Source of the DNA: Ostreococcus lucimarinus
Lineage: Eukaryota
NCBI GenBank assembly: GCA_000092065.1
Contig: CP000597.1
DNA: 64,000 bases
Direction: 5' to 3' (one strand)
Below are positions 16,043 through 46,498 of this stretch, in pieces. Below the pieces are notes generated by a model. The model saw nothing but the letters and a program-made list of their open reading frames with translations, was not told where the DNA came from and made no database searches. Both the position numbers and the translations under genes were made by a program. Every line of letters begins with the position of its first letter. The stretch's first letter is position 1.

Positions 16043-17506
<1,464 letters not shown>

Positions 17507-23974: not shown

Positions 23975-24110
23975 CGCTCGCCGTCTCGATCACGCCGCGC
24001 GCGTCGTCGCCGTCGTCGCGGGGCATCCGCGCCGGCGCGCGCGGCGTCGCGGCGCGCGCGCGGCGTCGCGGCGCGACGACGCGACGACGAGTGCCGCACA
24101 CGACGACGCG

Positions 24111-25382
24111 ATGGCGACGACGACGCGCGCGGCGACGGCGACGGCGCGCGCGACGGCTCGGACGCCGGCGACGGCGCGCGGGCGACGGCGCGCGGCGCGC
24201 GGCGCGCGCGCGGCGGCGCGCGCGCGGCGCGAGGGCGACGCGCGCGCGGAGGTCGAGGTCGAGGTTCGCGCGCGGGGACGGCGCGCGCGCGGCGCGAGGA
24301 CGGCGCGCGGGGACGCGCGCGCGGCGTCGAACGACGCGCGAGCGTTGGCGCGCGACGTGACGTGCGGCGCGGGCGCGAACGATGGCGCGCGGCGACGCGA
24401 GCGGAAGCCTCCGGCGGCGCAGCGCGCGCTGACGAAGTTTTTGGAACTCCCGGCGGTGCCGATCGGGTCGTTCGTGAGCTCGCCCACGTCGCCGTTGCAC
24501 AGGATGGACGCGAGGGTGAAGCAAGCGTGGTTGGCGGCGCTGTTGCTGCTTCCGGCGAGCGGAAGCGTGGATGATAAGATTGCGACGTGCGCGTTGTTGA
24601 CGGCGACGACTGTGGCGGCGTTGCCGCGGAGAGTGTGGAGACCGCAGTTGCAGTCGTTGATGACGGTTTGCGCGGTGTTTTTCGTCGCGGTGGCGATCGG
24701 AGCGGATTCCGTGGCGCCCGTGGTGTCGACCAGGGAGCCTCCGGCGAGTTTAGAGGGGTTGGAGGGGTTACCCGAGCTCGCGAGCTCGTACAAGTACGTG
24801 TTGTTTCATCTCGGGCCGCTACAGCTGACGAGGAAAGGGATCAATTTAGCTGTGACGTCGTCGGCGATGACGTTTACGGTGTTACAAAGCGCGCATTTAG
24901 CGCTGTGTGTGACGACGCCGGAGGCCATGGCGGCTGGGTTGCGCTGGTATCTCGCGCCGCTTCGCGCGCTTCGCGTGCCCGTGGAGGAGGTAATTTTCAC
25001 CCTGTTGCTATCGCTTCGCTTCACCTCGATCGTTTTCGAGGAAGTGCGGAATCTGAGCTTAGGATTAGCGGCGCGTGACATCGACTGGCGCGCGCTCGGG
25101 TGGCGCGGAAGCGTAGATTTATCGGGGCGATTGTTGGAACGGCTTTTAGACTCGCTCTTCGCCAACTCGGCGGCGATTAGCGACGCCGTGATATCGAGAG
25201 GGTACAAAGACGCAGCGAGCCATCGATTGATGTTGAGTGGCCGCACGAGTCCGGGTTTAGTCGAGAACGTCGTCGGCATCGTCGTTCTCGTGGCGTTCGT
25301 CGCACACTTCAACGAAGAGGCAATCGTGTGGTCGCTGGACGCGTTCAACACAGCCAACCGGCACGCGCTCGGGCGAGGTTAG
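24111..25382 (+). CDS. EcfT/CbiQ-family transmembrane component of an ECF/cobalt-type ABC transporter (likely plastid, ABCI12-like), with an R/A-rich targeting extension.
   Basis: ...FVSSPTSPLHRMDARVKQAWLAALLLLPA... (EcfT N-terminal LHRLDPRVK motif), followed by about 5 hydrophobic helices and a conserved ...AARDIDW.../...ISRGY... region. Confidence 0.5.
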   Translation: MATTTRAATATARATARTPATARGRRRAARGARAAARARREGDARAEVEVEVRARGRRARGARTARGDARAASNDARALARDVTCGAGANDGARRRERKPPAAQRALTKFLELPAVPIGSFVSSPTSPLHRMDARVKQAWLAALLLLPASGSVDDKIATCALLTATTVAALPRRVWRPQLQSLMTVCAVFFVAVAIGADSVAPVVSTREPPASLEGLEGLPELASSYKYVLFHLGPLQLTRKGINLAVTSSAMTFTVLQSAHLALCVTTPEAMAAGLRWYLAPLRALRVPVEEVIFTLLLSLRFTSIVFEEVRNLSLGLAARDIDWRALGWRGSVDLSGRLLERLLDSLFANSAAISDAVISRGYKDAASHRLMLSGRTSPGLVENVVGIVVLVAFVAHFNEEAIVWSLDAFNTANRHALGRG

Positions 25383-27268: not shown

Positions 27269-27790
27269 TCACGCCGCCGTCGCTTTGGCGCGCACGCGCT
27301 CGCGCCAGCCCACGAGCGCCGGACCGGGAATTTTCAACGCCTCCACGGTGTACGTCTTCTTCGATTTCGTCGACCGCTCGGAGTTTTCGCCGTCATCATT
27401 CGTTCGAACGCCGTCGTCGTCGTTTTCGTCGTCGTCGAACGAAAGACCGCGCTCGCACAACGTCGCCGCGTCCTCGTCGCGCGCGAACGTCACGAACGCG
27501 AAATCCTCTCCCTCCGGCACGTAACACCGCGTCACCTTCCCCCCGCGCACCGCTCTTTCGCACGCCTCGAGCACGTCCGACGCGTTTCTCTTACTCTCCG
27601 GCAAATCGTACGCCACGCACGGGTTCTTCAGCCGCGCGAACCGCTCCTGCCCGTCCTCCTCCATCGTCCACTCCGACTGCCACCCGTACTTCATCTGTCG
27701 ATACTCCGGCGTGTTCGGCTCGTCGATCGCGTACCCGGATCCCGCGATCTCGAAGAACGGGCCGAACGATCCCGCATCGCGTTCGCTCAT
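27269..27790 (-). CDS. Hypothetical small protein with an RRM-like segment (KVTRCYVPEGEDFAFVTFARDEDA) and an acidic tail.
   Basis: 173-aa ORF of balanced composition (W, Y, K, E, F). No R/A-rich bias. Family not recognised. Confidence 0.4.
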   Translation of the reverse strand: MSERDAGSFGPFFEIAGSGYAIDEPNTPEYRQMKYGWQSEWTMEEDGQERFARLKNPCVAYDLPESKRNASDVLEACERAVRGGKVTRCYVPEGEDFAFVTFARDEDAATLCERGLSFDDDENDDDGVRTNDDGENSERSTKSKKTYTVEALKIPGPALVGWRERVRAKATAA

Positions 27791-27892: not shown

Positions 27893-27925
27893 CCTAACTA
27901 TAAACTATAAACTATAAACTATAAA
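27893..27925. repeat. (CTATAAA)n microsatellite, 4-5 units.
   Basis: Sequence aactaa(ctataaa)x4 is directly visible. It is AT-rich within a GC-rich context and immediately abuts the interspersed repeat. Confidence 0.9.
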
Positions 27926-28132
27926 CTCGTCGAGTTTTCTACGTATTCACCGTGATTTAGATCTATTAGTGCCGAAATCGCGAAACCCGTTTTGTCCAGC
28001 CTGCACACTTACGCACAAACTTAGGGACTAAGAGCATCGCAATAACTTAAGTTCTCGTCGAGTTTTCTACGTATTCACCGTGATTTAGATCTATTAGTGC
28101 CGAAATCGCGAAACCCGTTTTGTCCAGCCTGC
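27926..28132 (+). repeat. Interspersed repeat family A, locus 1: 1.6 tandem copies of a ~128-bp unit (ctcgtcgagttttctacgtattcaccgtgatttagatctattagtgccgaaatcgcgaaacccgttttgtccagcctgcacacttacgcacaaactta...).
   Basis: Unit 1 is 27926..28053. Partial unit 2 is 28054..28132 and is nearly identical. The same element recurs at 41550..41772. The repeat lies between the divergent genes starting at 27790 (-) and 28202 (+). Confidence 0.9.
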
Positions 28133-28201: not shown

Positions 28202-29749
28202 ATGGCGTCTCCGACGCCGCACGCGCGCGCGCTCTGCCGCAGCGTAAACGTCCCGATCGCGCTCGACGACCGACGCGGTGCGCGCGCGATCAGACGACGC
28301 GCGACGCGCGCGAATGCGTCGACGAATGGGACGCCCGCGAGCGGGGACGCGCGCGCGAACGTCGACGACGACGACGAGAGACGACCGGGAAGCGTCGGGC
28401 GAGGGAACGACGGTGACGTGATGTTCGTGAACGGCGACGGCGCGACGCGGCGCGCGATCGGGGGCCGACGCGCGATGGAGGGACGCGCGGCGAATGGCGA
28501 CGAGGGGGAGAGGTTAAGAGACGGCGGCGCGCGCGGCGACGACGACGCGAGACGGGATTCGCGCGCGAGAGACGCGTCGTCGTCGTCGCCGGGGATGGCG
28601 AGAGGAAGTGGTGCGCGCGCGAGGTCGTCGAGCGGGGGCGCGAGCGCGATCAGAGGCGCGAACGCGGCGCGAGCGCAAACGGCGGAAATCTTGCTCACGC
28701 GAGGGTTGATTCTGAATAAGCTCGTCGTGACGCGCACGAGCGGGTCGCGATTGGGCGTGGCGACGGATTTGTGGGTGGACACCGATACGTGGGAGGTCGT
28801 GGCGTTAGATATTCGACAAAACGCGTTCGTGGGGACGGTAGACCACGTGCTGCTGGAGTCGCTGAGGCAAGTCGGGGACGTGATTTTGGTACACGACGAG
28901 CGCGCGGTGGAGCGGCGATGGAGCTCGTACGGATACAGCGCGGTGGTGGGGAAGGACGTCGTCACCGAGAGTGGGCAGTTTATCGGTCGAGTGCGGGATT
29001 TCGAATTCGATCCCGAGGACGGCGCCATCGCGAGGTTGATCGTCGACGCGTGGGGCGTGCCCACGGTGCCCGAGGGCGTGGTGTCGACGTACGCCGTGGA
29101 CGTCGTTGAGATTTTAGACTGCGGAACCGAACGCATCATCGTCGCCGAAGACGCCGAAAGTCGAGTCGAACAACTCAGCATGAGCGTTTTACAGCGCTTG
29201 GCGTTGACCGTGCCGCCGTGGGAGGAGGAAGAGATGATGTTCGGAAGCGACGCCTACTACGACGACGTCTACTACGACGACTACGGCCGCGCCGTGCCGT
29301 CGCGATCGCGCCGTCGCGCCGACGTAGACGAGTACGAAGCCTTCTTCCGACGTCGCGGCGGCGCCGCGCGCGGCGTCGAGCAGCGCCAATCGTCCGGAAG
29401 CCCCGTTCGCGAGGGCATCCCGCTGATGCGTCCGACGCAAGCGTACGAACGTCGCGACGTCGACGGCGGCTACGGCGACCGCCCCGGTTTCTCCGATTGG
29501 GTCGTCCGCGACGATCGCCGTCAATCGCGCGAGTACGAAACCGTCGACGCGTACTGGGATCCTCCCGCGAGACGCGAGCGCGCCGCCGCGCGTCGTCCGC
29601 CCGCCGACGCCCGCGACGTCCGCGACGTCCGCGCGTCGCCGCCGCCGCGCGACGCTCGCCCCCCGCCGCGTTCGCGCCGCGCGCCGCCGCCGCGTTCGCG
29701 CCGCGCGCCGCCCTCGGGCGCGTTCGACGCGTCCGAGGACATGCTCTGA
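28202..29749 (+). CDS. PRC-barrel domain protein (tandem PRC barrels), probably plastid-targeted, with a Pro/Arg-rich C-terminal tail.
   Basis: ...ILLTRGLILNKLVVTRTSGSRLGVATDLWVDTDTWEVVALDI... and ...AVVGKDVVTESGQFIGRVRDFEFDPEDGAIARLIVD... fit the PRC-barrel pattern (L.G..V....G..LG.V.D...D...G.I..L.V). The ORF track start at 28097 is a translation of the repeat (MPKSRNPFCPAC) and is not real. Confidence 0.45.
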   Translation: MASPTPHARALCRSVNVPIALDDRRGARAIRRRATRANASTNGTPASGDARANVDDDDERRPGSVGRGNDGDVMFVNGDGATRRAIGGRRAMEGRAANGDEGERLRDGGARGDDDARRDSRARDASSSSPGMARGSGARARSSSGGASAIRGANAARAQTAEILLTRGLILNKLVVTRTSGSRLGVATDLWVDTDTWEVVALDIRQNAFVGTVDHVLLESLRQVGDVILVHDERAVERRWSSYGYSAVVGKDVVTESGQFIGRVRDFEFDPEDGAIARLIVDAWGVPTVPEGVVSTYAVDVVEILDCGTERIIVAEDAESRVEQLSMSVLQRLALTVPPWEEEEMMFGSDAYYDDVYYDDYGRAVPSRSRRRADVDEYEAFFRRRGGAARGVEQRQSSGSPVREGIPLMRPTQAYERRDVDGGYGDRPGFSDWVVRDDRRQSREYETVDAYWDPPARRERAAARRPPADARDVRDVRASPPPRDARPPPRSRRAPPPRSRRAPPSGAFDASEDML

Positions 29750-36770: not shown

Positions 36771-37769
36771 TTAACATCGCATGCCTTCCTCGGTGACCGT
36801 GTACGCGCCTCCGTGGCGGCGCACCGGTACGTCCCACGTCGCTACGCCCGCGTACTCACCGTATCCAACGCGTTTGTTCGACGGCGCCAACAAGACGCGC
36901 TGCGTCACCGCGTTCGTCCACTCCACGGGTAAGAAATCCTTGTACTGCCCACCCCGTCGACCATCGTTCGACGACAACGTCGTCTTTGTCACCACAACCG
37001 CCGCCCTATGCGCGCTCGCTAGGCGCTTGAACAATCTCGCCGCGGCGGAAAACACGCGCTGAATGTTAAACGGCGCCCCGTGGTCCTTCCTCGATGCTCG
37101 ATCGAGCCAGTAAAACGCCGCCACGTTGTCACAAATCACCAACCGCTGCGACGCGAATTTCGCCATCTCACCGCTTTTGGCACCGTTCGTACCTCCACCC
37201 TCTGCGTCCTCCCCCGTCTCCCTCGTCTCCGCCGTCTCCGCGTCCACGAACAGTCCGTCTCTTTTCGCGCTCTCGATCGCTCCGCTCCACGCCGCGTCCA
37301 GCGCCGTCAGCGTCTTCAACGCGTCCACCATCCCGTGCGCCCTCACCAGCGTGAATCTCGACATCGATTCCTCGTACACCTCATCTCGCATCGTCACTCG
37401 CTGATTCTCTCGCACGTTCGCCAGCTTTTCCTCAATCTTTCGATTCAGCGCTCGCAGCAGCCGCAGTTGGTCAAACTTTCCATCGCAATCGATGACGATC
37501 ACCCGCGCCTCGCTCCCGTCGTACCGCACCCCGTCCCGCGCTCGCGGCAGCACGGCGTGCGCGGCGATCTCGGTGACGAACTCCGTCTTCCCCGACCCCG
37601 GCGCGCCGACGATCTCGACGATCTCTCCCGCGCGAAGCGCCGGTTCGGGGTCGCGCGCGTCGACGAACGGAATCCCGCTCCGCAGCGGCTCTCGCAGCGC
37701 GCGGTCGAGGTACGCGCGCGCCGTCTCGCTCGGCGCGAGGAACGCGAGCGTTTCTTCCAGCGTGTTCAT
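36771..37769 (-). CDS. RAD51 paralog (RecA/RAD51-family ATPase; XRCC2/XRCC3/RAD51C/D-like). Alternative start at 37871.
   Basis: Walker A EIVGAPGSGKTEFV. ...RVIVIDCDGKFD... . A hydrophobic Walker B-like LVICDNVAAFYW. Short protein (~330 aa) typical of RAD51 paralogs. Confidence 0.55.
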   Translation of the reverse strand: MNTLEETLAFLAPSETARAYLDRALREPLRSGIPFVDARDPEPALRAGEIVEIVGAPGSGKTEFVTEIAAHAVLPRARDGVRYDGSEARVIVIDCDGKFDQLRLLRALNRKIEEKLANVRENQRVTMRDEVYEESMSRFTLVRAHGMVDALKTLTALDAAWSGAIESAKRDGLFVDAETAETRETGEDAEGGGTNGAKSGEMAKFASQRLVICDNVAAFYWLDRASRKDHGAPFNIQRVFSAAARLFKRLASAHRAAVVVTKTTLSSNDGRRGGQYKDFLPVEWTNAVTQRVLLAPSNKRVGYGEYAGVATWDVPVRRHGGAYTVTEEGMRC

Positions 37770-37869
37770 CCGCGCGTCGCGCGCTCGCGCGACATCAACC
37801 GCGACGCGTCGACGAGTGCGACCGACTCGCGGCGTCCGCCGAACGAATCGCCATCGCGCGGCGCGCGGC

Positions 37870-40671: not shown

Positions 40672-41460
40672 TCACGCAATCAAGCGCAGGAGCTGTCCGG
40701 AGAGCTGAAACGACTTCCCAGTCTCCTCGAGGCACCGATCCTTCTCTTCGCGCGACCACGCCTCGGCGGTTTCGTTTAACAAATTTCTCACCCGAGCCAA
40801 AGATTCATCCAAGCCCCCGTTCGCGCGCCACTCGTAAAATTCCAGTTCTTTACCATCCAAAATGAGCTCGCTCACCTTGCGTCCGATCATCCGTCCCCCC
40901 GCGCTGTGCGCAAAGTAGACGTTGTAAAAGTGACAAATAAACTCGGGCGGCGACGTCGCCGCGAGCGCCTTGAGCGTCTCCGCGTACTCCTTCCCCGCCC
41001 CCGTCGCTTCCCTCGGCGCCAACCCGAATCGCTCCTCCATATACTTAATATCCTTCCTCAGCGCCTCCGAGCGCTCTAACCCACAATTATTAAACTTTCC
41101 ATACGTTTTTTCGTTTTCGTTCGCCGCCACGACGCGCTCCATCGCCTCGTACACCGCCAGCGACTCCACCAAAAAGTTCAAGTATCCCTCCGCCGTCGGC
41201 GTCCATCGCGCCACGGGCTTTTGTTCCGACTTCGTCGCGTCCGTCTTTTTCTCTCCCTCCCTCGGCGCTTGCTCCCGCGTGTGCAGCGACATCGCGACGC
41301 GTCGCATCTCTTCGACGAAGCCTTTTTGTTGTCCCATCGACGCGCCGTGTCCGTGTCCGTGCGCGCGCGCGCGCGCGTGAGACGCCCGCGCGCGCGACAG
41401 AGAGGGCGCGCGCGCGACGTGCGCGCGCGACGACGGCGCGGCGGCGCGCGCCAGCGGCAT
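40672..41460 (-). CDS. HO1: Plant-type heme oxygenase 1 (HY1/HO1-like), plastid-targeted.
   Basis: ...EGYLNFLVESLAVYEAME...EFICHFYNVYFAHSAGGRMIGRKVSELILDGKELEFYEW...LARVRNLLNETAEAWSREEKDRCLEETGKSFQLSGQLLRLI matches the plant HO1 C-terminal consensus. The ORF track start at 41547 extends 5' to the edge of repeat family A. ATG 41460 (MPLARAAAPS..., transit-peptide-like) is preferred. Confidence 0.85.
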   Translation of the reverse strand: MPLARAAAPSSRAHVARAPSLSRARASHARARAHGHGHGASMGQQKGFVEEMRRVAMSLHTREQAPREGEKKTDATKSEQKPVARWTPTAEGYLNFLVESLAVYEAMERVVAANENEKTYGKFNNCGLERSEALRKDIKYMEERFGLAPREATGAGKEYAETLKALAATSPPEFICHFYNVYFAHSAGGRMIGRKVSELILDGKELEFYEWRANGGLDESLARVRNLLNETAEAWSREEKDRCLEETGKSFQLSGQLLRLIA

Positions 41461-41549
41461 GTCGGCGCTTCTACGTGCGCGCGAGCGCGTCGGACGGTGA
41501 CGTCGAGATTCATTCGTTGGGTTTCGAGCTCTCGTCCCGTCGTGCACCC

Positions 41550-41772
41550 TGGATTGGTTCTCGTCGAGTTTTCTACGTATTTACCGTGATTTAGAGCCAT
41601 GCGTGCCGAAATCGCGATTGCGTTTTGTCCAGCCTGCACACTTACGCACAAACTTAGTGCAGGGCGACTAACAGCATCGCACATAACTTAAGTTCTCGTC
41701 GAGTTTTCTACGTATTTACCGTGCTTTAGATCTATTAGTGCCGAAATCGCGAAAACCGTTTTGTCCAGCCTG
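41550..41772 (+). repeat. Interspersed repeat family A, locus 2: 1.6 tandem copies of a ~135-bp unit (about 85-90 % identical to locus 1).
   Basis: Unit 1 is 41550..41684. Partial unit 2 is 41685..41772. It shares ctcgtcgagttttctacgtatt(c/t)accgtg...gtgccgaaatcgcga...gttttgtccagcctgcacacttacgc with 27926..28132. It lies about 90 bp upstream of the HO1 ATG and about 100 bp beyond the stop of the helicase. Confidence 0.9.
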
Positions 41773-41872
41773 CACACTTACGCGTGGGTTGACGACTCTG
41801 CTCCACGACTTCGATTACACGAGTGGAGTGAGTGCGTGCGTGACTACAGAAAAACAACGCGTGGTAAATGAA

Positions 41873-44800
41873 TTAGTTGCCGCGGCGCTGAGCGCCGCGG
41901 AAACCGCCGCCGCGATCGCCGCGATCGTAATCGGCGTCGCGACGGCGGAACTGACGCTGGCGAAACGCGTCTCGCTCGTCGAGGATGCGGAATAAACCGC
42001 CCACGGCGTCGACGATGTTTTCGCTGGCGTCCGGAAGTGGTTTGCGAGGAGCCATGACTTTGAAAGCCAGCGCGGCATCGATCTCGCGACGGACGTCGGT
42101 GAGTAGATCCATGGTATCGGCGCACTGCGAATCGATGACGATCCAGTCGTCGAGCATGGCTCGGTGAGAGGTGGTTCGCTTGTCGCCGTCATCAGACGCG
42201 CCATCGGCGTCGCTCGACGACGCGAGTTCGCCGGATTCGTTCAATAGTCCCGCTTCGGGCGCCTTCGATGCCGTGGCGGCGTCATCACCATCCAGAAAGT
42301 CTCGCTTGGAGAGCTCGTGACCGCCGAGGAGCATGAGCTGCTCGGGGCGCATCGCCGTGACGTCTCGCAAGAACACTTGCGAGCTGAGCATCATCTCTCG
42401 ATACAAGAACCATCGAGGAAGAGGCGTGCGGTCGCGCGGTGGTTTGCGATGGAAAGCTACGCTCGAGGGGTGTAATCCGGCGTGGTCCTCGGTGCGCGTT
42501 CGCAGGGTGCCAAAGTTGCCAAACTGCCGCCGAGCCGCGATGTTCCCGGGGAGTCCTGCCGCCCAAACCGCGGTGAAGAGCGATTCGTTGGCGGCGTTAT
42601 AGTTCACCGATGCATCGTATCGCAGCGTCTTCTTACTCATCGATCGCCCGTCCAAATCGTAATCTTGAACCAATCCGATACGGTTTAGCTCGTGCAAGAG
42701 CTGCGAGCGAACCGAAGTGATGGTGTTCAAAGCGGCGATGGATATGAAATTATCGCTCGCCCAACGCCGAGCGCCGTCCCAGCCTTGATCGTACTGGATA
42801 GTCTGGAACGCATCGTACGCGCGAACAGTGGCGAGTAAATCTGAAGTCGCGCAGAACGATTGTCTGATTTGCCGCGCCTCGTCTCGCATCCCCGGAGGGA
42901 CGTAAAACGGATCCCGAGAGCTGAAACACGCCGCAGCGGTGAGCACTGGATCGAGACATTTCATCACTGCTCCCATGATGAGCATCCGTCCAGTCCCAGG
43001 ATCGAGCGGGAGGATGGACAGCAATCGTCCCATGGGCGTGAGGACTTCGCCTCCAGACGCCTCGTTCGTCTTGATGGCGCCGAGTTTAAAAAGCCTATCC
43101 ATCGCATACTCCACAGTCTCGTCCGACGGAGGGTCCATGGCTTTGGACAAGAAGTGTTGTACTCCGGTGTTGGTCATCGAGCACGTCTGCAAACAAGTCG
43201 CTTCGAGCGCCGTGCGCTGGATCTCTGGCGTCGGTCGTTCCGCCATGGCGTGCAGAGTACCGTGAGAATATATTCGGTAGCACGATCCAGGGGCGACACG
43301 TCCAGCGCGACCGGTTCGTTGTGTCGCGCTTGCGCGCGACGTTCCGACCGTGCCCATCGTCGACATTCCGCTCTCGGCGTTCCAAGACATCTCTCGTACC
43401 AGACCGCTGTCCACCACGGCGAGCACGTCGTTGATGGTGACAGAAGATTCGGCAATGTTCGTCGCTAATATGACCTTCACCACGCCATCTGGCGCCGGTA
43501 TGAACACTTTTTGTTGCTCTTCTTGAGGAATCGTCGAATGAAGTGGTATAACGTTCAACTTCTCGTAAAGCTCGGGGTCGGTGGTCTCCTCCAGTATCGC
43601 CATCGCCGACTTTATCTCATCCCAACCGGGTAGGAAGCACAAGATACTACCCTTACGTCCGGCGTCGGTTTCGATAGCCGCGACGTGTTTAGCGACTTCG
43701 GCGAGGAGTTGAATCGTGAGTTCGCTCACTTCCTTCGTTTCGTTCGCGCCGAATCGCTTACCAGCTCCACTCTTGCCCATGGACGACTCGCCCGTGCGCG
43801 CGTCGCGCATAGCCACCGCTCGACGAAGAGCACGCACGCGAGACGACGCTCGCATGCGACGAGGTGACATTCCTCGATTATTTTCGACGTCTTCCAACTT
43901 CATCGCCATGTCTTCGAGCGCAGGGTCGACGTCGTCGACGTCGTCGTCGTCATCGTCGACATCGTCTTCGTCCTCAGACACTTCCACTTCCACCTGCTCG
44001 TCCTCCGCCGCCGATATGCGCTCAAGTTGCTGCGCAGCGATTTCTTCGGCTTCGGCTTCCTCGAGTTCGCGCTGCAACGCGCGATCCTGCGCCGCGAGCA
44101 AATCTTTCGCAAGCTTTTTCAATCGACTTGGGATTTCTCGCTTACGAGCGTTGAATTCCTCCTCGCTTACAAGACTTTCATCTTCGACTTCGAGCTCGCC
44201 TCCACCGTCTAGCATATCCTCGAGGTGGACGATCTCTACAGGCCATCGCGGTTTCGTCGGTACGCTCATCAAAGGTACCTTTTCCTGCGTATCTTCACCC
44301 GCAAAGTAGTCACTGAACGATTCCGCGTCGAGCGTCGCGCTCATCAAAACGACTCGCAAATCCGGTCGAGTGGTGATGAGTTCGCGGAGCAAGACGAGCA
44401 GAAAGTCGGTGTTAATGTCGCGCTCGTGAACTTCGTCGATCATAACGTGCGAGATACCTTCCAAATTTTGATCTCTCATGAGTCTGCGAAGTAAAACCCC
44501 GGTCGTGACGAATTCAATGTTCGCCGCGTCGCGCGGTGAATTACCGTGTAATCGCACGGCGAAACCCACCGAGTTCCCAATCGGTTCGTCGCGCTCCGCC
44601 GCGACGCGCTCAGCGACAGATATCGCGGCGATACGTCGTGGTTGGGTGACGATAATGCGCGTGTTCGGCCCTTCGCCTTGTTGGATGGCGTCTTCTAAGA
44701 TGTACTGCGGACACTGGGTCGATTTCCCGCTCCCCGTGCCTCCGCTCACGACGACCACTTGATGTGTTTGCAACGCTTTCACGAGATCTTCGCGAATGGC

Positions 44801-46498
44801 TTTGATGGGCAGCGCATCGCGAATTCTCTTCATCTCTGCTTGAGGGCTTTGCTCGTTCTCGACGGCTCTTCGCAATCGCTTTGCCTCTTCCTCGGCGTAT
44901 TCGCTATTCTCCGCCGCAACGCGTTCCGCCGCACGCGACTCGCGCGCAGCCTTGAGTATTTCTTCCGCTTTCGACGGTCCATCGGAGCTTTTACGCCATT
45001 TTGACTCTTGTCGCGCCGAAAACTTGGCCTCAAACTCCGCTTGTAATTCCACTAGCTCAGACATTCTACCGTCGTGTTCCTCGGGCGAACCCATGGCCTC
45101 GACGAGAATATCGATTCCTTTATCCGGTAACGCGGGCATTGACATCATTGATACGTGATTCGCAGGCGAGGCGTCGATGATTCGATTCAACTCTTCGAGC
45201 CGCCTCTCGCCGACGACAGCGGCGAGCGGTTCGCGGACCGCGTTGATTATTGCCTCGGCTTCGCTCGATGCTTTACTCGCACCTTTCCCACTTCCCTCGA
45301 GCTTCTTCCCACCATCAACGAGCATGCTAACTTCAGTGACGAAATTTCGCTGCTTTTGCGACGTCACCATGGACGGTCGCGTCGAATTCAGCATTTCCAA
45401 GAGCATCTGCGCCCTGTTCTTCTTCGCCTGTTGCGACTCCTTCGCTCGCTCCATGAGCATCTTACGCACGTCCGGTGGATCTTTGGGATTGATCCCGCAC
45501 TGCGTGAACTGTTCGTACAAATCTATCAGCGCCAGCGCCTGCGACTCTTTCTTCCCGAACGCCACCCCCGTGTTGACGAGTTCCACCGCGTCGTCCTCCA
45601 TCGCCGTCGCGTCCGCGGGCGTCGGTTGAATCGCCCCGTGCGGCACCACCGTCCTCACCGTCGTGATGAACGTCTGATCGTGCGCCGGTCCGTTCATCGT
45701 CGTCGACATTCTTTGCTTAAACAGCATTTTCATAGCCGCCTTGTGTAAAATATTCCGTACGTTCTGCCCGTCGACGCCGAGTCGCTCCTTGACGCCCTTC
45801 GCGAGTTGCCGCGTCATGATCGCTCGTCCGTTTTCCCCGTGCGTCACCACCGCCGCGGGCGGCGCTTTACTCGATCGTTTCCCTCCCCCTCTCGACTTCG
45901 TTCGCGCGTCCTCGCGTCCCTGCCGCCCCCCTCGTCCTCCCCGTCCGCCCCGTCCGCCGCGTCCTCCGCGCCCTCGTCCCCCGCCTCGCCCTCGACCGCC
46001 TCGCCCTCGACGCTCATCCCTCCCGCCGCCCTCCTCCGCGCGCGCCGCCGTCGCCGTCGCTTTCGCGCGCCCTTCCTTCGTCGCCCACGCGCCGTCGCGC
46101 GCGTTCCCGCGTCCCGGCGCGTTCGCGCGCGCGTCGCCGCTCGCGCGTCGCGTCCCGCCCGCGTCGCCGCTCGCGCGCGCGCGCGCCGTCGTCGTCGCGC
46201 GCGCCGCGGCGAATCGATCGAGCGCGTTCCGGACGCTTCTCGCGCTTCCCGCGCGCGCGACGACCGCGCACGCGCCGAGCGCGCGCCTCGGCGTCGCGCA
46301 CGCCGCCGGCGCGCGCGCGTCGACGCGCGCGCGCGCGCGCGCCGTCGCCGCGACGCGCATCGCCGCCAGCGCGCTCCGGCGCATGCGACCGCGGCGCGCT
46401 CGGGTCGACGCCGCCGGCGCGCGTCGCGCGCGTGTGCGGCGCCGAGGCGCGCGCGCGCGCGCGGCGCGCGGCCGCGCGGCGATGTCGCGTATGCGCAT
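41873..46498 (-). CDS. DEAH-box ATP-dependent RNA helicase (DHX36/DHX57-like) with an N-terminal RGG/RG-rich region. Start is uncertain.
   Basis: RGG box GGRGRGGGRGRGGRGGRGGRGGRGG. Motif I VVVVSGGTGSGKSTQ, Ia TQPRRIAAISVAERVA, II IDEVHER, III SATLD, VI QRTGRAGR. C-terminal HA2/OB region. An internal acidic insert (DEDDVDDDDDDVDDVD) is present. Confidence 0.85.
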   Translation of the reverse strand: MRIRDIAARPRAARARAPRRRTRARRAPAASTRARRGRMRRSALAAMRVAATARARARVDARAPAACATPRRALGACAVVARAGSARSVRNALDRFAAARATTTARARASGDAGGTRRASGDARANAPGRGNARDGAWATKEGRAKATATAARAEEGGGRDERRGRGGRGRGGGRGRGGRGGRGGRGGRGGRQGREDARTKSRGGGKRSSKAPPAAVVTHGENGRAIMTRQLAKGVKERLGVDGQNVRNILHKAAMKMLFKQRMSTTMNGPAHDQTFITTVRTVVPHGAIQPTPADATAMEDDAVELVNTGVAFGKKESQALALIDLYEQFTQCGINPKDPPDVRKMLMERAKESQQAKKNRAQMLLEMLNSTRPSMVTSQKQRNFVTEVSMLVDGGKKLEGSGKGASKASSEAEAIINAVREPLAAVVGERRLEELNRIIDASPANHVSMMSMPALPDKGIDILVEAMGSPEEHDGRMSELVELQAEFEAKFSARQESKWRKSSDGPSKAEEILKAARESRAAERVAAENSEYAEEEAKRLRRAVENEQSPQAEMKRIRDALPIKAIREDLVKALQTHQVVVVSGGTGSGKSTQCPQYILEDAIQQGEGPNTRIIVTQPRRIAAISVAERVAAERDEPIGNSVGFAVRLHGNSPRDAANIEFVTTGVLLRRLMRDQNLEGISHVMIDEVHERDINTDFLLVLLRELITTRPDLRVVLMSATLDAESFSDYFAGEDTQEKVPLMSVPTKPRWPVEIVHLEDMLDGGGELEVEDESLVSEEEFNARKREIPSRLKKLAKDLLAAQDRALQRELEEAEAEEIAAQQLERISAAEDEQVEVEVSEDEDDVDDDDDDVDDVDPALEDMAMKLEDVENNRGMSPRRMRASSRVRALRRAVAMRDARTGESSMGKSGAGKRFGANETKEVSELTIQLLAEVAKHVAAIETDAGRKGSILCFLPGWDEIKSAMAILEETTDPELYEKLNVIPLHSTIPQEEQQKVFIPAPDGVVKVILATNIAESSVTINDVLAVVDSGLVREMSWNAESGMSTMGTVGTSRASATQRTGRAGRVAPGSCYRIYSHGTLHAMAERPTPEIQRTALEATCLQTCSMTNTGVQHFLSKAMDPPSDETVEYAMDRLFKLGAIKTNEASGGEVLTPMGRLLSILPLDPGTGRMLIMGAVMKCLDPVLTAAACFSSRDPFYVPPGMRDEARQIRQSFCATSDLLATVRAYDAFQTIQYDQGWDGARRWASDNFISIAALNTITSVRSQLLHELNRIGLVQDYDLDGRSMSKKTLRYDASVNYNAANESLFTAVWAAGLPGNIAARRQFGNFGTLRTRTEDHAGLHPSSVAFHRKPPRDRTPLPRWFLYREMMLSSQVFLRDVTAMRPEQLMLLGGHELSKRDFLDGDDAATASKAPEAGLLNESGELASSSDADGASDDGDKRTTSHRAMLDDWIVIDSQCADTMDLLTDVRREIDAALAFKVMAPRKPLPDASENIVDAVGGLFRILDERDAFRQRQFRRRDADYDRGDRGGGFRGAQRRGN

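What the first reader, a model, noticed from the sequence alone, without database searches (positions are those of the whole stretch)
41550..41772. Second copy of repeat family A, between the helicase 3' end and the heme-oxygenase start
Same unit and same 1.6-copy architecture as at 27926. It is diverged at several positions (tatttaccgtg vs tattcaccgtg, and an internal segment gagccatgcg vs atctattagt in unit 1). This suggests an old insertion or duplication and not assembly redundancy. It lies about 90 bp upstream of the preferred HO1 ATG (41460), so it may lie within the HO1 promoter/5'UTR.
Basis: seen in the sequence. Interest (0 to 1): 0.6.

Follow-up and report, generated by a model that had tools for sequence, protein, structure and literature searches.

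The report
Hypervariable intergenic minisatellite in Ostreococcus lucimarinus
The repeat upstream of the heme oxygenase gene is real: it is one locus of a small family of 81-bp repeats, found only in the Ostreococcus lucimarinus group, that form short tandem arrays between genes, change copy number from strain to strain and stay alike across loci; nothing shows that it regulates the gene.

Summary
Window 41558-41783 and 27926-28132 both read core X (81 bp) - spacer S1 - core X, are 90% identical, and have no other copy in the window.

The organism is the Ostreococcus lucimarinus clade. In 17 wild alleles of this locus the neighbouring heme oxygenase (HO) gene is about 99.7% identical. The array nevertheless holds 1, 2 or 3 X cores, with S1 or S2 spacers in varying order. 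The sister locus holds 1-6 cores.

O. tauri and four other Ostreococcus lineages keep the helicase-HO gene order. Their spacer is only about 140-170 bp and contains no X. The array is therefore a clade-specific insertion.

X copies group by lineage and not by locus: 94% identity between loci within a lineage, 82% between lineages at the same locus. This is concerted evolution. The ends of X are invariant and the middle varies.

X has no terminal inverted repeats, target-site duplications, LTR signals, Rfam match or conserved RNA fold.

Best reading: a low-copy interspersed minisatellite, probably derived from a mobile element. It expands and contracts by unequal recombination between X cores and is homogenised by exchange between loci. 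Its position, 97 bp upstream of the HO ATG, fits a promoter or 5'UTR location, but a regulatory role is untested. Interest is moderate to low.

The parts
41558..41637 (+). X core, copy 1 of the HO-upstream array (80 nt, 'Xb' subtype: ...TTTAGAGCCATGCG...CGCGATTGCG...)
   Evidence: blastn against the X consensus, 90% over 81. Sequence read. The same subtype occurs in other strains at this locus.
41638..41692 (+). Spacer S1 (55 nt). With the end of X it forms a 7-bp inverted repeat, CCTGCAC...GTGCAGG.
   Evidence: The same spacer lies between X cores at locus A and at locus C (L025), and is replaced by S2 in other strains at this locus.
41693..41773 (+). X core, copy 2 (81 nt, common 'Xa' subtype)
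   Evidence: 97.5% to the X consensus. Identical copies occur in L007 (locus B) and L028 (locus A).
41774..41783 (+). Remnant of a further S1 (ACACTTACGC) at the helicase-proximal edge of the array
   Evidence: Present and invariant in all lineage-1 alleles of this locus (column RF).
27926..28004 (+). Sister locus A, X copy 1
28005..28051 (+). Sister locus A, spacer S1 carrying an 8-nt deletion (47 nt)
28052..28132 (+). Sister locus A, X copy 2
27896..27927 (+). (AACTATA)4.6 microsatellite abutting the 5' edge of the locus A array. It is polymorphic among strains.
   Evidence: TRF. Alleles with CAACTCTAA in its place are shown.
40672..41460 (-). Heme oxygenase CDS (262 aa). Its ATG lies 97 bp from the array.
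   Evidence: ORF; Pfam PF01126 on the identical gene calls; the protein cluster contains O. lucimarinus XP_001422256.
41873..46498 (-). DEAH-box helicase ORF. Its stop codon lies 89 bp from the array.
   Evidence: ORF; DEAD / Helicase_C / HA2_C / OB_NTP_bind on the orthologous gene calls.
27269..27790 (-). 173-aa ORF of unknown function. Its ATG lies 135 bp from the locus A array.
   Evidence: no Pfam match; the identical protein is listed in 1091 blocks of the collection.
28202..29749 (+). PRC-barrel protein gene. Its ATG lies 69 bp beyond the locus A array.
   Evidence: 515-aa gene calls with PF05239.

Best explanation
The element is one locus of a low-copy family of interspersed minisatellites specific to the Ostreococcus lucimarinus clade.

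**Structure**
- The building block is an 81-bp core X with invariant ends: TTCTCGTCGAGTTTTCTACGTATTTA ... CGTTTTGTCCAGCCTGC.
- X is about 42% G+C in a 64% G+C genome.
- Cores are joined head to tail by a few spacer types: S1 (55 nt) and S2 (33 nt) in this lineage.

**Shown**
- The array was inserted into the helicase-HO spacer after the split from O. tauri and four other Ostreococcus lineages.
- It was inserted before the split of two O. lucimarinus-like lineages.
- It now varies between 1 and 3 cores among wild strains.
- Its copies stay alike across loci within a lineage.

**Inferred**
- Copy number changes by unequal recombination or replication slippage between X cores. This mechanism cannot remove the last core, which fits every allele seen keeping at least one.
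- Spacer types and X subtypes move between loci by ectopic gene conversion.
- The family originally reached its loci as a small non-autonomous mobile element. Its conserved termini were needed for that movement; its class cannot be assigned.
- It has no demonstrated function. It sits in the one tolerated place of a compact genome, between the 3' end of one gene and the promoter of the next. It may passively shift or add promoter sequence for HO.
For: **The repeat is real and non-random:**

**Organism:**

**Copy-number and spacer polymorphism**
- This locus: 289-555 bp intergenic, 1-3 X cores, S1 or S2 in varying order.
- Locus A: 1, 2, 3 or 6 cores.
- This includes contigs of 230-362 kb.
- 12 of 12 complete alleles are distinct, while the HO coding sequence is 99.7% identical and the 85-nt helicase-side flank is 99.6% identical.

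**Insertion is specific to the clade**
- Five outgroup lineages, including O. tauri chromosome 18, keep helicase-HO synteny with a spacer of about 140-170 bp.
- They give no X hit at E<0.01 in 84 kb.

**Present in the sister lineage:** X arrays lie upstream of HO and at locus A in lineage 2.

**Concerted evolution**
- X identity is 94.0% between loci within lineage 1.
- It is 81.8% at the same locus between lineages.
- Each lineage has its own spacer types, shared among its loci.
- One locus A allele carries the spacer subvariant otherwise seen at locus C.

**Ends conserved, middle variable:** 0 of 43 end columns against 13 of 39 middle columns differ between lineages 1 and 2, Fisher p = 2e-5.

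**Different lineages hold X at different loci:** 8 loci in all, in intergenic DNA, mostly on the 5' side of genes.

**Behaves as a repeat in assemblies:** many short-read contigs end inside arrays.
Against: - No hallmark of any transposon class was found: no terminal inverted repeats, target-site duplications, TG..CA ends, primer-binding site or polypurine tract, CTRR end, or autonomous partner.
- The family is small. All 11 lineage-1 hits of the metagenome scan fall in only 3 loci. 'Mobile' therefore rests on lineage-specific locations and not on observed insertion polymorphism.
- No empty allele was seen within the clade.
- The invariant ends could equally reflect a protein-binding function.
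- Metagenome assemblies, especially k141 short-read ones, can collapse or chimerise arrays of near-identical 114-136 bp units, so some individual alleles may be wrong.
- No transcript or expression data were available.
Confidence: 0.6

Rival explanations
1. Co-opted cis-regulatory module. X is a binding platform for a DNA-binding protein (two conserved end blocks, a TATTTA and a TACGTA motif). It acts as a promoter, enhancer or insulator piece for the flanking genes, and copy number tunes HO expression.
For: - The ends are invariant across three lineages while the middle drifts.
- Arrays are retained directly upstream of HO in two lineages, even though a gene was inserted on, or lost from, the helicase side.
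- At locus C, X ends 15 nt before an ATG, so that gene's transcript must start in or at the array.
- Most loci are on the 5' side of genes.
- X is A+T-richer than its surroundings.
Against: - Five related Ostreococcus lineages run HO from a spacer of about 140-170 bp without X.
- The genes next to arrays have no evident functional link: HO, an unknown 173-aa protein, a PRC-barrel protein, an RBM39-like RNA-binding protein, a TPR-like protein.
- One locus lies between two 3' ends, and another starts 12 nt after a stop codon.
- Retention of the last core is expected under neutral unequal exchange.
- No expression data are available.
Confidence: 0.2
2. Miniature terminal-repeat retrotransposon (TRIM-like). 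X is a tiny LTR and S1/S2 the internal domain. Single cores are solo LTRs and X-S-X-S-X alleles are tandemly arrayed TRIMs.
For: The solo / L2I1 / L3I2 series seen at both loci is the pattern described for tandemly arrayed TRIMs (PMC4717578).
Against: - X does not begin with TG or end with CA.
- No spacer starts with a tRNA-complementary TGG... site next to X.
- No polypurine tract abuts the downstream X.
- No 5-bp target duplication flanks any locus.
- An 81-bp LTR with a 33-55 bp interior is far below described TRIMs.
- A survey found no TRIMs in O. lucimarinus or O. tauri.
Confidence: 0.05
3. Small RNA gene or self-cleaving (retrozyme-like) tandem repeat. X, or X plus its spacer, is transcribed into a structured RNA, and the gene copies are homogenised like snRNA or 5S families.
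For: A conserved core with variable spacers, together with concerted evolution, is the pattern of tandem small-RNA gene families.
Against: - No Rfam family matches at the gathering threshold in the window, and none with E<0.1 in 41300-42000.
- RNAalifold on 32 X variants finds no consensus structure on either strand.
- Single-sequence folds are no better than shuffles, z = -0.04 to +0.85.
- 1-nt length differences between subtypes, and stops in most frames, exclude a peptide.
Confidence: 0.04
4. Recombination-site cassette system. X is an att-like site, and S1 or S2 together with one X travel as small DNA circles that integrate into, and excise from, any genomic X. This would produce the swapped spacers and the variable arrays.
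For: - The same spacer types appear between complete X cores at three loci and in varying order.
- At one orthologous position (locus C) the spacer is S1 in one strain and S2 in another.
- Junctions between X and spacers are always precise.
- Structural changes cluster at array edges: the Cys-loop channel gene in lineage 2 and a 480-bp insert in L027.
Against: - Ordinary unequal crossing-over plus ectopic gene conversion explains all of this without a dedicated enzyme.
- No recombinase gene is associated with any locus.
- No circle junction can be observed with these data.
Confidence: 0.06

Closest known systems
Hypervariable minisatellites (VNTRs), including promoter VNTRs
   Same: - Head-to-tail units of about 113-136 bp.
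- Copy number differs between individuals (1-6).
- Variant units are interspersed within arrays.
- Flanks are nearly invariant.
   Different: - The same unit family sits at several unlinked or 13.6-kb-distant loci and evolves in concert across them.
- Units are composite: a conserved core plus alternative spacers.
- The arrays are very short.
Tandemly arrayed TRIMs / solo-LTR series in plants (PMC4717578)
   Same: A series of one repeat, repeat-interior-repeat, and three repeats with two interiors at a single locus.
   Different: TG..CA ends, a primer-binding site, a polypurine tract and target duplications were all looked for and not found. The size is several-fold smaller.
'Accordion' tandem repeats on the small outlier chromosome of O. 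tauri / O. mediterraneus (PMC13390643)
   Same: Same genus; tandem arrays that expand and contract between closely related lines; species-specific sequence.
   Different: - Those units are about 1.8 kb, carry ORFs and sit on the outlier chromosome.
- This family has units of 0.11-0.14 kb, is non-coding, and lies between ordinary genes in 64% G+C DNA.
Bacterial interspersed mosaic elements (REP/BIME) - from general knowledge, not tested here
   Same: Short intergenic repeats assembled as mosaics of a conserved core with a small set of alternative linkers. They are found between genes in a compact genome.
   Different: BIME cores are palindromic and alternate in orientation. X is not palindromic and is always head to tail. 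The host here is a eukaryote.
Introner elements of Micromonas (same order, Mamiellales) - from general knowledge, not tested by sequence
   Same: A lineage-specific family of short non-coding interspersed repeats in a very compact picoalgal genome.
   Different: Introners lie inside genes as introns and number in the thousands. X lies between genes, forms tandem arrays and is seen at only a handful of loci.

Membership tests
Minisatellite / VNTR | Head-to-tail tandem units of tens to about 100+ bp | tested here: met
   X plus spacer has a period of 113-136 bp, always in the same orientation.
Minisatellite / VNTR | Copy number polymorphic among individuals while flanks are conserved | tested here: met
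   1-3 cores at this locus and 1-6 at locus A. 12 of 12 alleles are distinct, while the HO CDS is 99.7% identical. Caveat: the alleles come from metagenome assemblies.
MITE (miniature inverted-repeat transposable element) | Terminal inverted repeats | tested here: not met
   The 5' end TCTCGTCGAGTTTTC and the reverse complement of the 3' end, GCAGGCTGGACAAAAC, do not match.
MITE (miniature inverted-repeat transposable element) | Target-site duplication flanking each insertion | tested here: not met
   No shared short repeat lies at the two edges of any of 8 loci.
TRIM / LTR retroelement | Terminal direct repeats starting with TG and ending with CA | tested here: not met
   X starts TTCTCG / TCTCG and ends CCTGC. 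On the other strand it runs GCAGG...GAGAA.
TRIM / LTR retroelement | Primer-binding site next to the 5' repeat and polypurine tract next to the 3' repeat | tested here: not met
   Spacers S1-S4 were read on both strands. None has TGG... abutting X. The only purine run (GAAAAAAGGGG, in lineage-2 spacer S4) is about 30 nt from the next X. The Ostreococcus tRNA set was not available for a full PBS test.
TRIM / LTR retroelement | 5-bp target-site duplication | tested here: not met
Helitron | 5'-TC ... CTRR-3' ends, a subterminal 3' hairpin, and insertion between A and T | tested here: not met
   - The 5' TC is present.
- The 3' end is CCTGC, not CTRR.
- The base before X is T or A and the base after is G, A or T.
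- A CGCGATCGCG palindrome occurs upstream of the 3' end only in some subtypes.
SINE | Internal Pol III A and B boxes, a simple-repeat or A-rich tail, and a target duplication | tested here: not met
   - No A/B-box match was found by eye on either strand.
- Conserved T4 runs would terminate Pol III.
- A/T-rich variable tails such as (TTTATAG)n lie next to one end.
- There is no target duplication.
Known structured RNAs, including self-cleaving ribozymes (retrozyme-type repeats) | Match to a covariance model, or a conserved and covarying secondary structure | tested here: not met
   Rfam gives no match. RNAalifold finds none on either strand. Fold z-scores are about 0 or positive (-0.04 to +0.85).
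Micromonas-type introner elements | Located within genes as spliceable introns | tested here: not met
   All arrays lie between ORFs. Sequence similarity to introners could not be tested.

The most novel reading that the evidence does not exclude
X is a recombination (att-like) site and not a passive repeat. Small X+spacer units move between X-bearing loci as excised circles or by directed conversion. Array edges are preferred entry points for foreign DNA, for example the Cys-loop channel gene in the sister lineage and the 480-bp ORF-bearing insert in L027. On this reading, a compact picoalgal genome would hold a handful of 'landing pads' that generate rapid promoter-side structural variation.
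Probability: 0.06. Interest if true: 0.7.

Novelty: new member of a known kind. Interest (0 to 1): 0.35.

Why it matters
- **Rare feature in this genome type.** Ostreococcus genomes are among the most compact and repeat-poor in eukaryotes. A repeat family outside the outlier chromosomes that differs in nearly every wild genome sampled is therefore a useful finding.
- **Strain marker.** The arrays are ready-made, highly discriminating markers for population studies of an abundant marine picoalga.
- **Evidence of ectopic recombination.** The lineage-wide homogenisation of copies 13.6 kb or more apart shows that exchange between dispersed sequences operates in these genomes.
- **Cause of assembly breaks.** The arrays explain why short-read metagenome contigs break at these points.
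- **Possible expression variation.** If copy number alters HO or neighbouring promoters, the arrays would be a source of fast expression variation. That remains to be tested.

Tried and rejected
- **Rfam** at gathering (whole window) and permissive (41300-42000) thresholds: nothing relevant.
- **tRNA/SINE origin:** the only tRNA in the window is elsewhere.
- **Consensus RNA structure** on 32 X variants, both strands: none. Single-sequence folds are no better than shuffles.
- **Prasinovirus or other viral origin:** 0 hits for a 20-mer in viral contigs. The ten 16-mer hits extend no further than 16-18 nt.
- **Prokaryotic genomes:** 22 hits for a 17-mer, all extending only 17-22 nt, so they are chance matches.
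- **Coding potential:** two frames of X are open, but subtypes differ by 1-nt indels.
- **The 122-aa ORF next to a half X in L027** was checked as a possible autonomous partner. It has no Pfam match. Its homologues are unnamed metagenome ORFs. Its other copies (L083, L085) have no X beside them, so it is an unrelated insert.
- **Literature:** searches for Ostreococcus with transposable elements/repeat, minisatellite, MITE, tandem repeats in promoters or repetitive elements, and for the X sequence itself, found no description of this family. The O. lucimarinus genome paper was not available.
- **The repeat finder on the whole window** was swamped by CG-rich low-complexity matches and did not show the family.
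- **TRF** misses both arrays because they have fewer than 2 copies.

Full report
**1. Is it there?**

Yes. The window sequence at 41558-41783 reads X (80 nt) - S1 (55 nt) - X (81 nt) - first 10 nt of S1. The region 27926-28132 reads X - S1 (47 nt, with an 8-nt deletion) - X.

- blastn aligns the two loci at 90.2% over 215 bp (E 1e-75), and each locus aligns to itself at the expected offset.
- No further copy exists in the 64-kb window, even at word size 7.
- An 18-mer from the core occurs 4 times, all on the + strand, against 0.03 expected.
Its coordinates are about 8-11 bp off at each end.
- TRF misses both arrays because they have fewer than two copies.
- The whole-window repeat finder was swamped by CG-rich low complexity.

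**2. Where is it?**

The window is 64% G+C eukaryote-like DNA.

- On the minus strand, a 1541-aa DEAH helicase ORF ends at 41873 and a 262-aa heme oxygenase (HO) ORF starts at 41460.
- The array occupies 226 bp of the 412-bp spacer. It lies 89 bp after the helicase stop and 97 bp before the HO ATG.
- The sister array lies between two divergently transcribed genes: a 173-aa ORF with ATG at 27790, and a PRC-barrel protein with ATG at 28202.
- The HO protein is in the same 90% cluster as O. lucimarinus CCE9901 XP_001422256. The organism is therefore O. lucimarinus or a very close relative.

**3. Population view of this locus**

An exact look-up of the HO protein returned nine metagenome contigs with a 100% identical HO. 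The helicase-HO spacer in them is 289, 405, 408, 418, 421, 429, 516, 517 or 555 bp.

Reading these spacers and parsing them into modules shows:
- 1, 2 or 3 X cores;
- two spacer types, S1 (55 nt) and S2 (33 nt), in varying order;
- two X subtypes that recombine.
- a variable junction on the HO side.

With the contigs from a DNA-pattern scan, 17 lineage-1 alleles of this locus were seen. All 12 complete ones differ from each other. Their HO coding sequence is 99.7% identical, and the 85 nt next to the helicase are 99.6% identical.

The sister locus behaves the same way, with 1, 2, 3 or 6 cores and S1 and S2 mixed.

Contigs of 230-362 kb also differ from one another. From their size and naming they look like long-read assemblies, which is my inference. 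The variation is therefore not only a short-read artefact, although individual k141 alleles could be collapsed or chimeric. Many short-read contigs stop inside arrays.

**4. Age and distribution**

HO orthologues at 73-80% protein identity were traced to their contigs. One of them is O. tauri chromosome 18.
- All five outgroup lineages keep the helicase-HO-...-TRAPP-Rad51-like gene order.
- Their helicase-HO spacer is only about 140-170 bp.
- X gives no hit at E<0.01 in 84 kb.

A sister lineage ('lineage 2') has 93-95% DNA identity in the neighbouring genes. It does have X arrays upstream of HO (2-3 cores) and at locus A.
- Its spacers are different (S3, S4).
- It has a 414-aa Cys-loop channel gene between the helicase and the array.

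The array was therefore inserted after the split from the other Ostreococcus species and before the split of lineages 1 and 2.

The pattern scan also found X at six other intergenic loci in three lineages. All 11 lineage-1 hits fall in just three loci (A, B, C), so the family is small. X is absent from viral contigs and prokaryotic genomes apart from chance 16-22-mers.

**5. Concerted evolution**

Among 82 X copies:
- identity is 94.0% between different loci within lineage 1, and 95.2% within a locus;
- between lineages 1 and 2 it is 81.8% at the same locus and 82.2% at different loci.

Unique non-coding flanks are 71-82% identical between the lineages. X has therefore diverged at roughly the neutral rate between lineages while being homogenised across loci within each.

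Spacer types tell the same story:
- S1/S2 are shared by loci A, B and C in lineage 1, and S3/S4 by loci A and B in lineage 2.
- At locus C one strain has S1 and another S2 in the same position.
- A six-core allele of locus A carries the S2 subvariant otherwise seen at locus C.

**6. What kind of element?**

Substitutions between lineages avoid the ends of X. Between lineages 1 and 2, 0 of 43 end columns differ against 13 of 39 middle columns (p = 2e-5). Such conserved termini fit a mobile-element origin or a protein-binding role.

None of the class hallmarks is present:
- no terminal inverted repeats;
- no target-site duplications;
- no TG..CA ends;
- no primer-binding site or polypurine tract abutting X;
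- no CTRR end.

The edge of the array next to the TTCTCG end carries variable A/T-rich simple sequence: (AACTATA)n, TATATACATATATATA, and GGTTTA-type motifs. This resembles a retroposon tail on the opposite strand, but no Pol III boxes or target duplications accompany it.

There is no Rfam match, no consensus RNA structure on either strand and no unusual folding energy. One-nucleotide indels between subtypes exclude a peptide.

A survey of plant and algal TRIMs found none in O. lucimarinus (PMC4717578). No paper describing this family was found. The nearest phenomenon in the genus is the 1.8-kb 'accordion' repeat on the outlier chromosome (PMC13390643).

**7. Mechanism**

*Shown:*
- a clade-specific insertion;
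- hypervariable copy number;
- exchange of modules between loci.

*Inferred:*
- Unequal recombination or slippage between X cores changes copy number. This cannot delete the last core, which matches the fact that no allele lacks X.
- Ectopic gene conversion homogenises the loci.
- The first arrival at each locus was by a non-autonomous element of unresolved class.

*Regulatory role: possible but unsupported.*
- The array is within about 100 bp of the HO ATG.
- At locus C, X ends 15 nt before an ATG, so arrays must sometimes be in promoters or UTRs.
- X carries TATTTA and TACGTA motifs.
- Against this, five related species express HO without X, and the neighbouring genes share no theme.

**8. 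Verdict**

This is a real and previously undescribed, as far as the searchable literature shows, but conceptually ordinary element: an interspersed, concertedly evolving minisatellite in intergenic DNA of the O. lucimarinus clade.

Its dating argument does not hold, because the differences are segregating, recombining subtypes.

Interest is moderate to low (0.35). It would rise only if the arrays prove to tune expression or to act as recombination landing pads.

Noticed in passing
L075:4302-5546 and L014:261-1505: The sister lineage has a 414-aa Cys-loop ligand-gated ion-channel gene (Pfam Neur_chan_LBD, 1.7e-18) between the helicase and the X array. It is absent from the window and from five outgroup Ostreococcus lineages. 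Its stop codon lies 12 nt from the first X.
   Followed up: partly
window 27896-27927: A perfect (AACTATA)4.6 microsatellite abuts the locus A array. Other strains have CAACTCTAA or CAAACTCTAT there instead, so the microsatellite is itself polymorphic.
   Followed up: partly
L002, L006, L008 and L021, between the last X and HO (equivalent to window ~41550-41557): The junction between the array and the HO-side flank is polymorphic. Alleles read CGGTCGGTTTACC, an imperfect ~29-nt palindrome (GGTTTACCGAGTTCAATTCTCGGTAAACT), TATATACATATATATA, or nothing. The palindrome looks like a separate small insertion.
   Followed up: no
L027:1300-1950; L084:553-1023; L085:196-684; L083:10193-10493: A ~480-bp A+T-richer segment (48% G+C) with a 122-aa ORF of unknown function replaces half an X plus a spacer in L027. 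Copies 85% identical occur elsewhere without X. One is in a 48% G+C contig with KDO/sugar-metabolism genes that is labelled as a Euryarchaeota MAG (PBNL01000023.1) and is probably mis-binned picoalgal DNA.
   Followed up: partly
L075:4100-4200 and L014:1600-1720: A 22-mer, GTCTGATTCGTCCCACTAAAAA, is repeated in the spacer between the helicase and the Cys-loop channel gene in the sister lineage.
   Followed up: no
L011:2440-2620 and L013:580-760: Just after a single X there is a run of related motifs (GGTCCGCTTTA, GGATCCGTTATAG, GGGTCCGCTGTAAG), followed by GGTTAAACCCTA, which resembles a plant-type telomere repeat or telo-box.
   Followed up: no
L027:5250-5320: Three tandem copies of GTCGCGGGCATTTTTGCC lie just upstream of a truncated half-X (it ends after GATTTAG), in a spacer between two gene 3' ends.
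   Followed up: no
window 40672-41460: The NCBI protein model for this HO (XP_001422256, 221 aa) starts at the internal MGQQKG. The 262-aa ORF from ATG 41460 adds an Arg/Ala-rich, transit-peptide-like N-terminus. The 262-aa form is the one called on most metagenome contigs, and this N-terminus is where sister-lineage variants differ.
   Followed up: partly
window 37692-37784: tRNA-Arg(TCG) predicted at 93 nt, long enough to contain an intron. It overlaps long spurious ORFs in the mechanical ORF list.
   Followed up: no
window-wide, e.g. 16235-16262, 24028-24373, 46150-46470: Dense (CG)n and CG-rich imperfect repeats lie at many gene boundaries. They dominate every generic repeat search of this window.
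   Followed up: no
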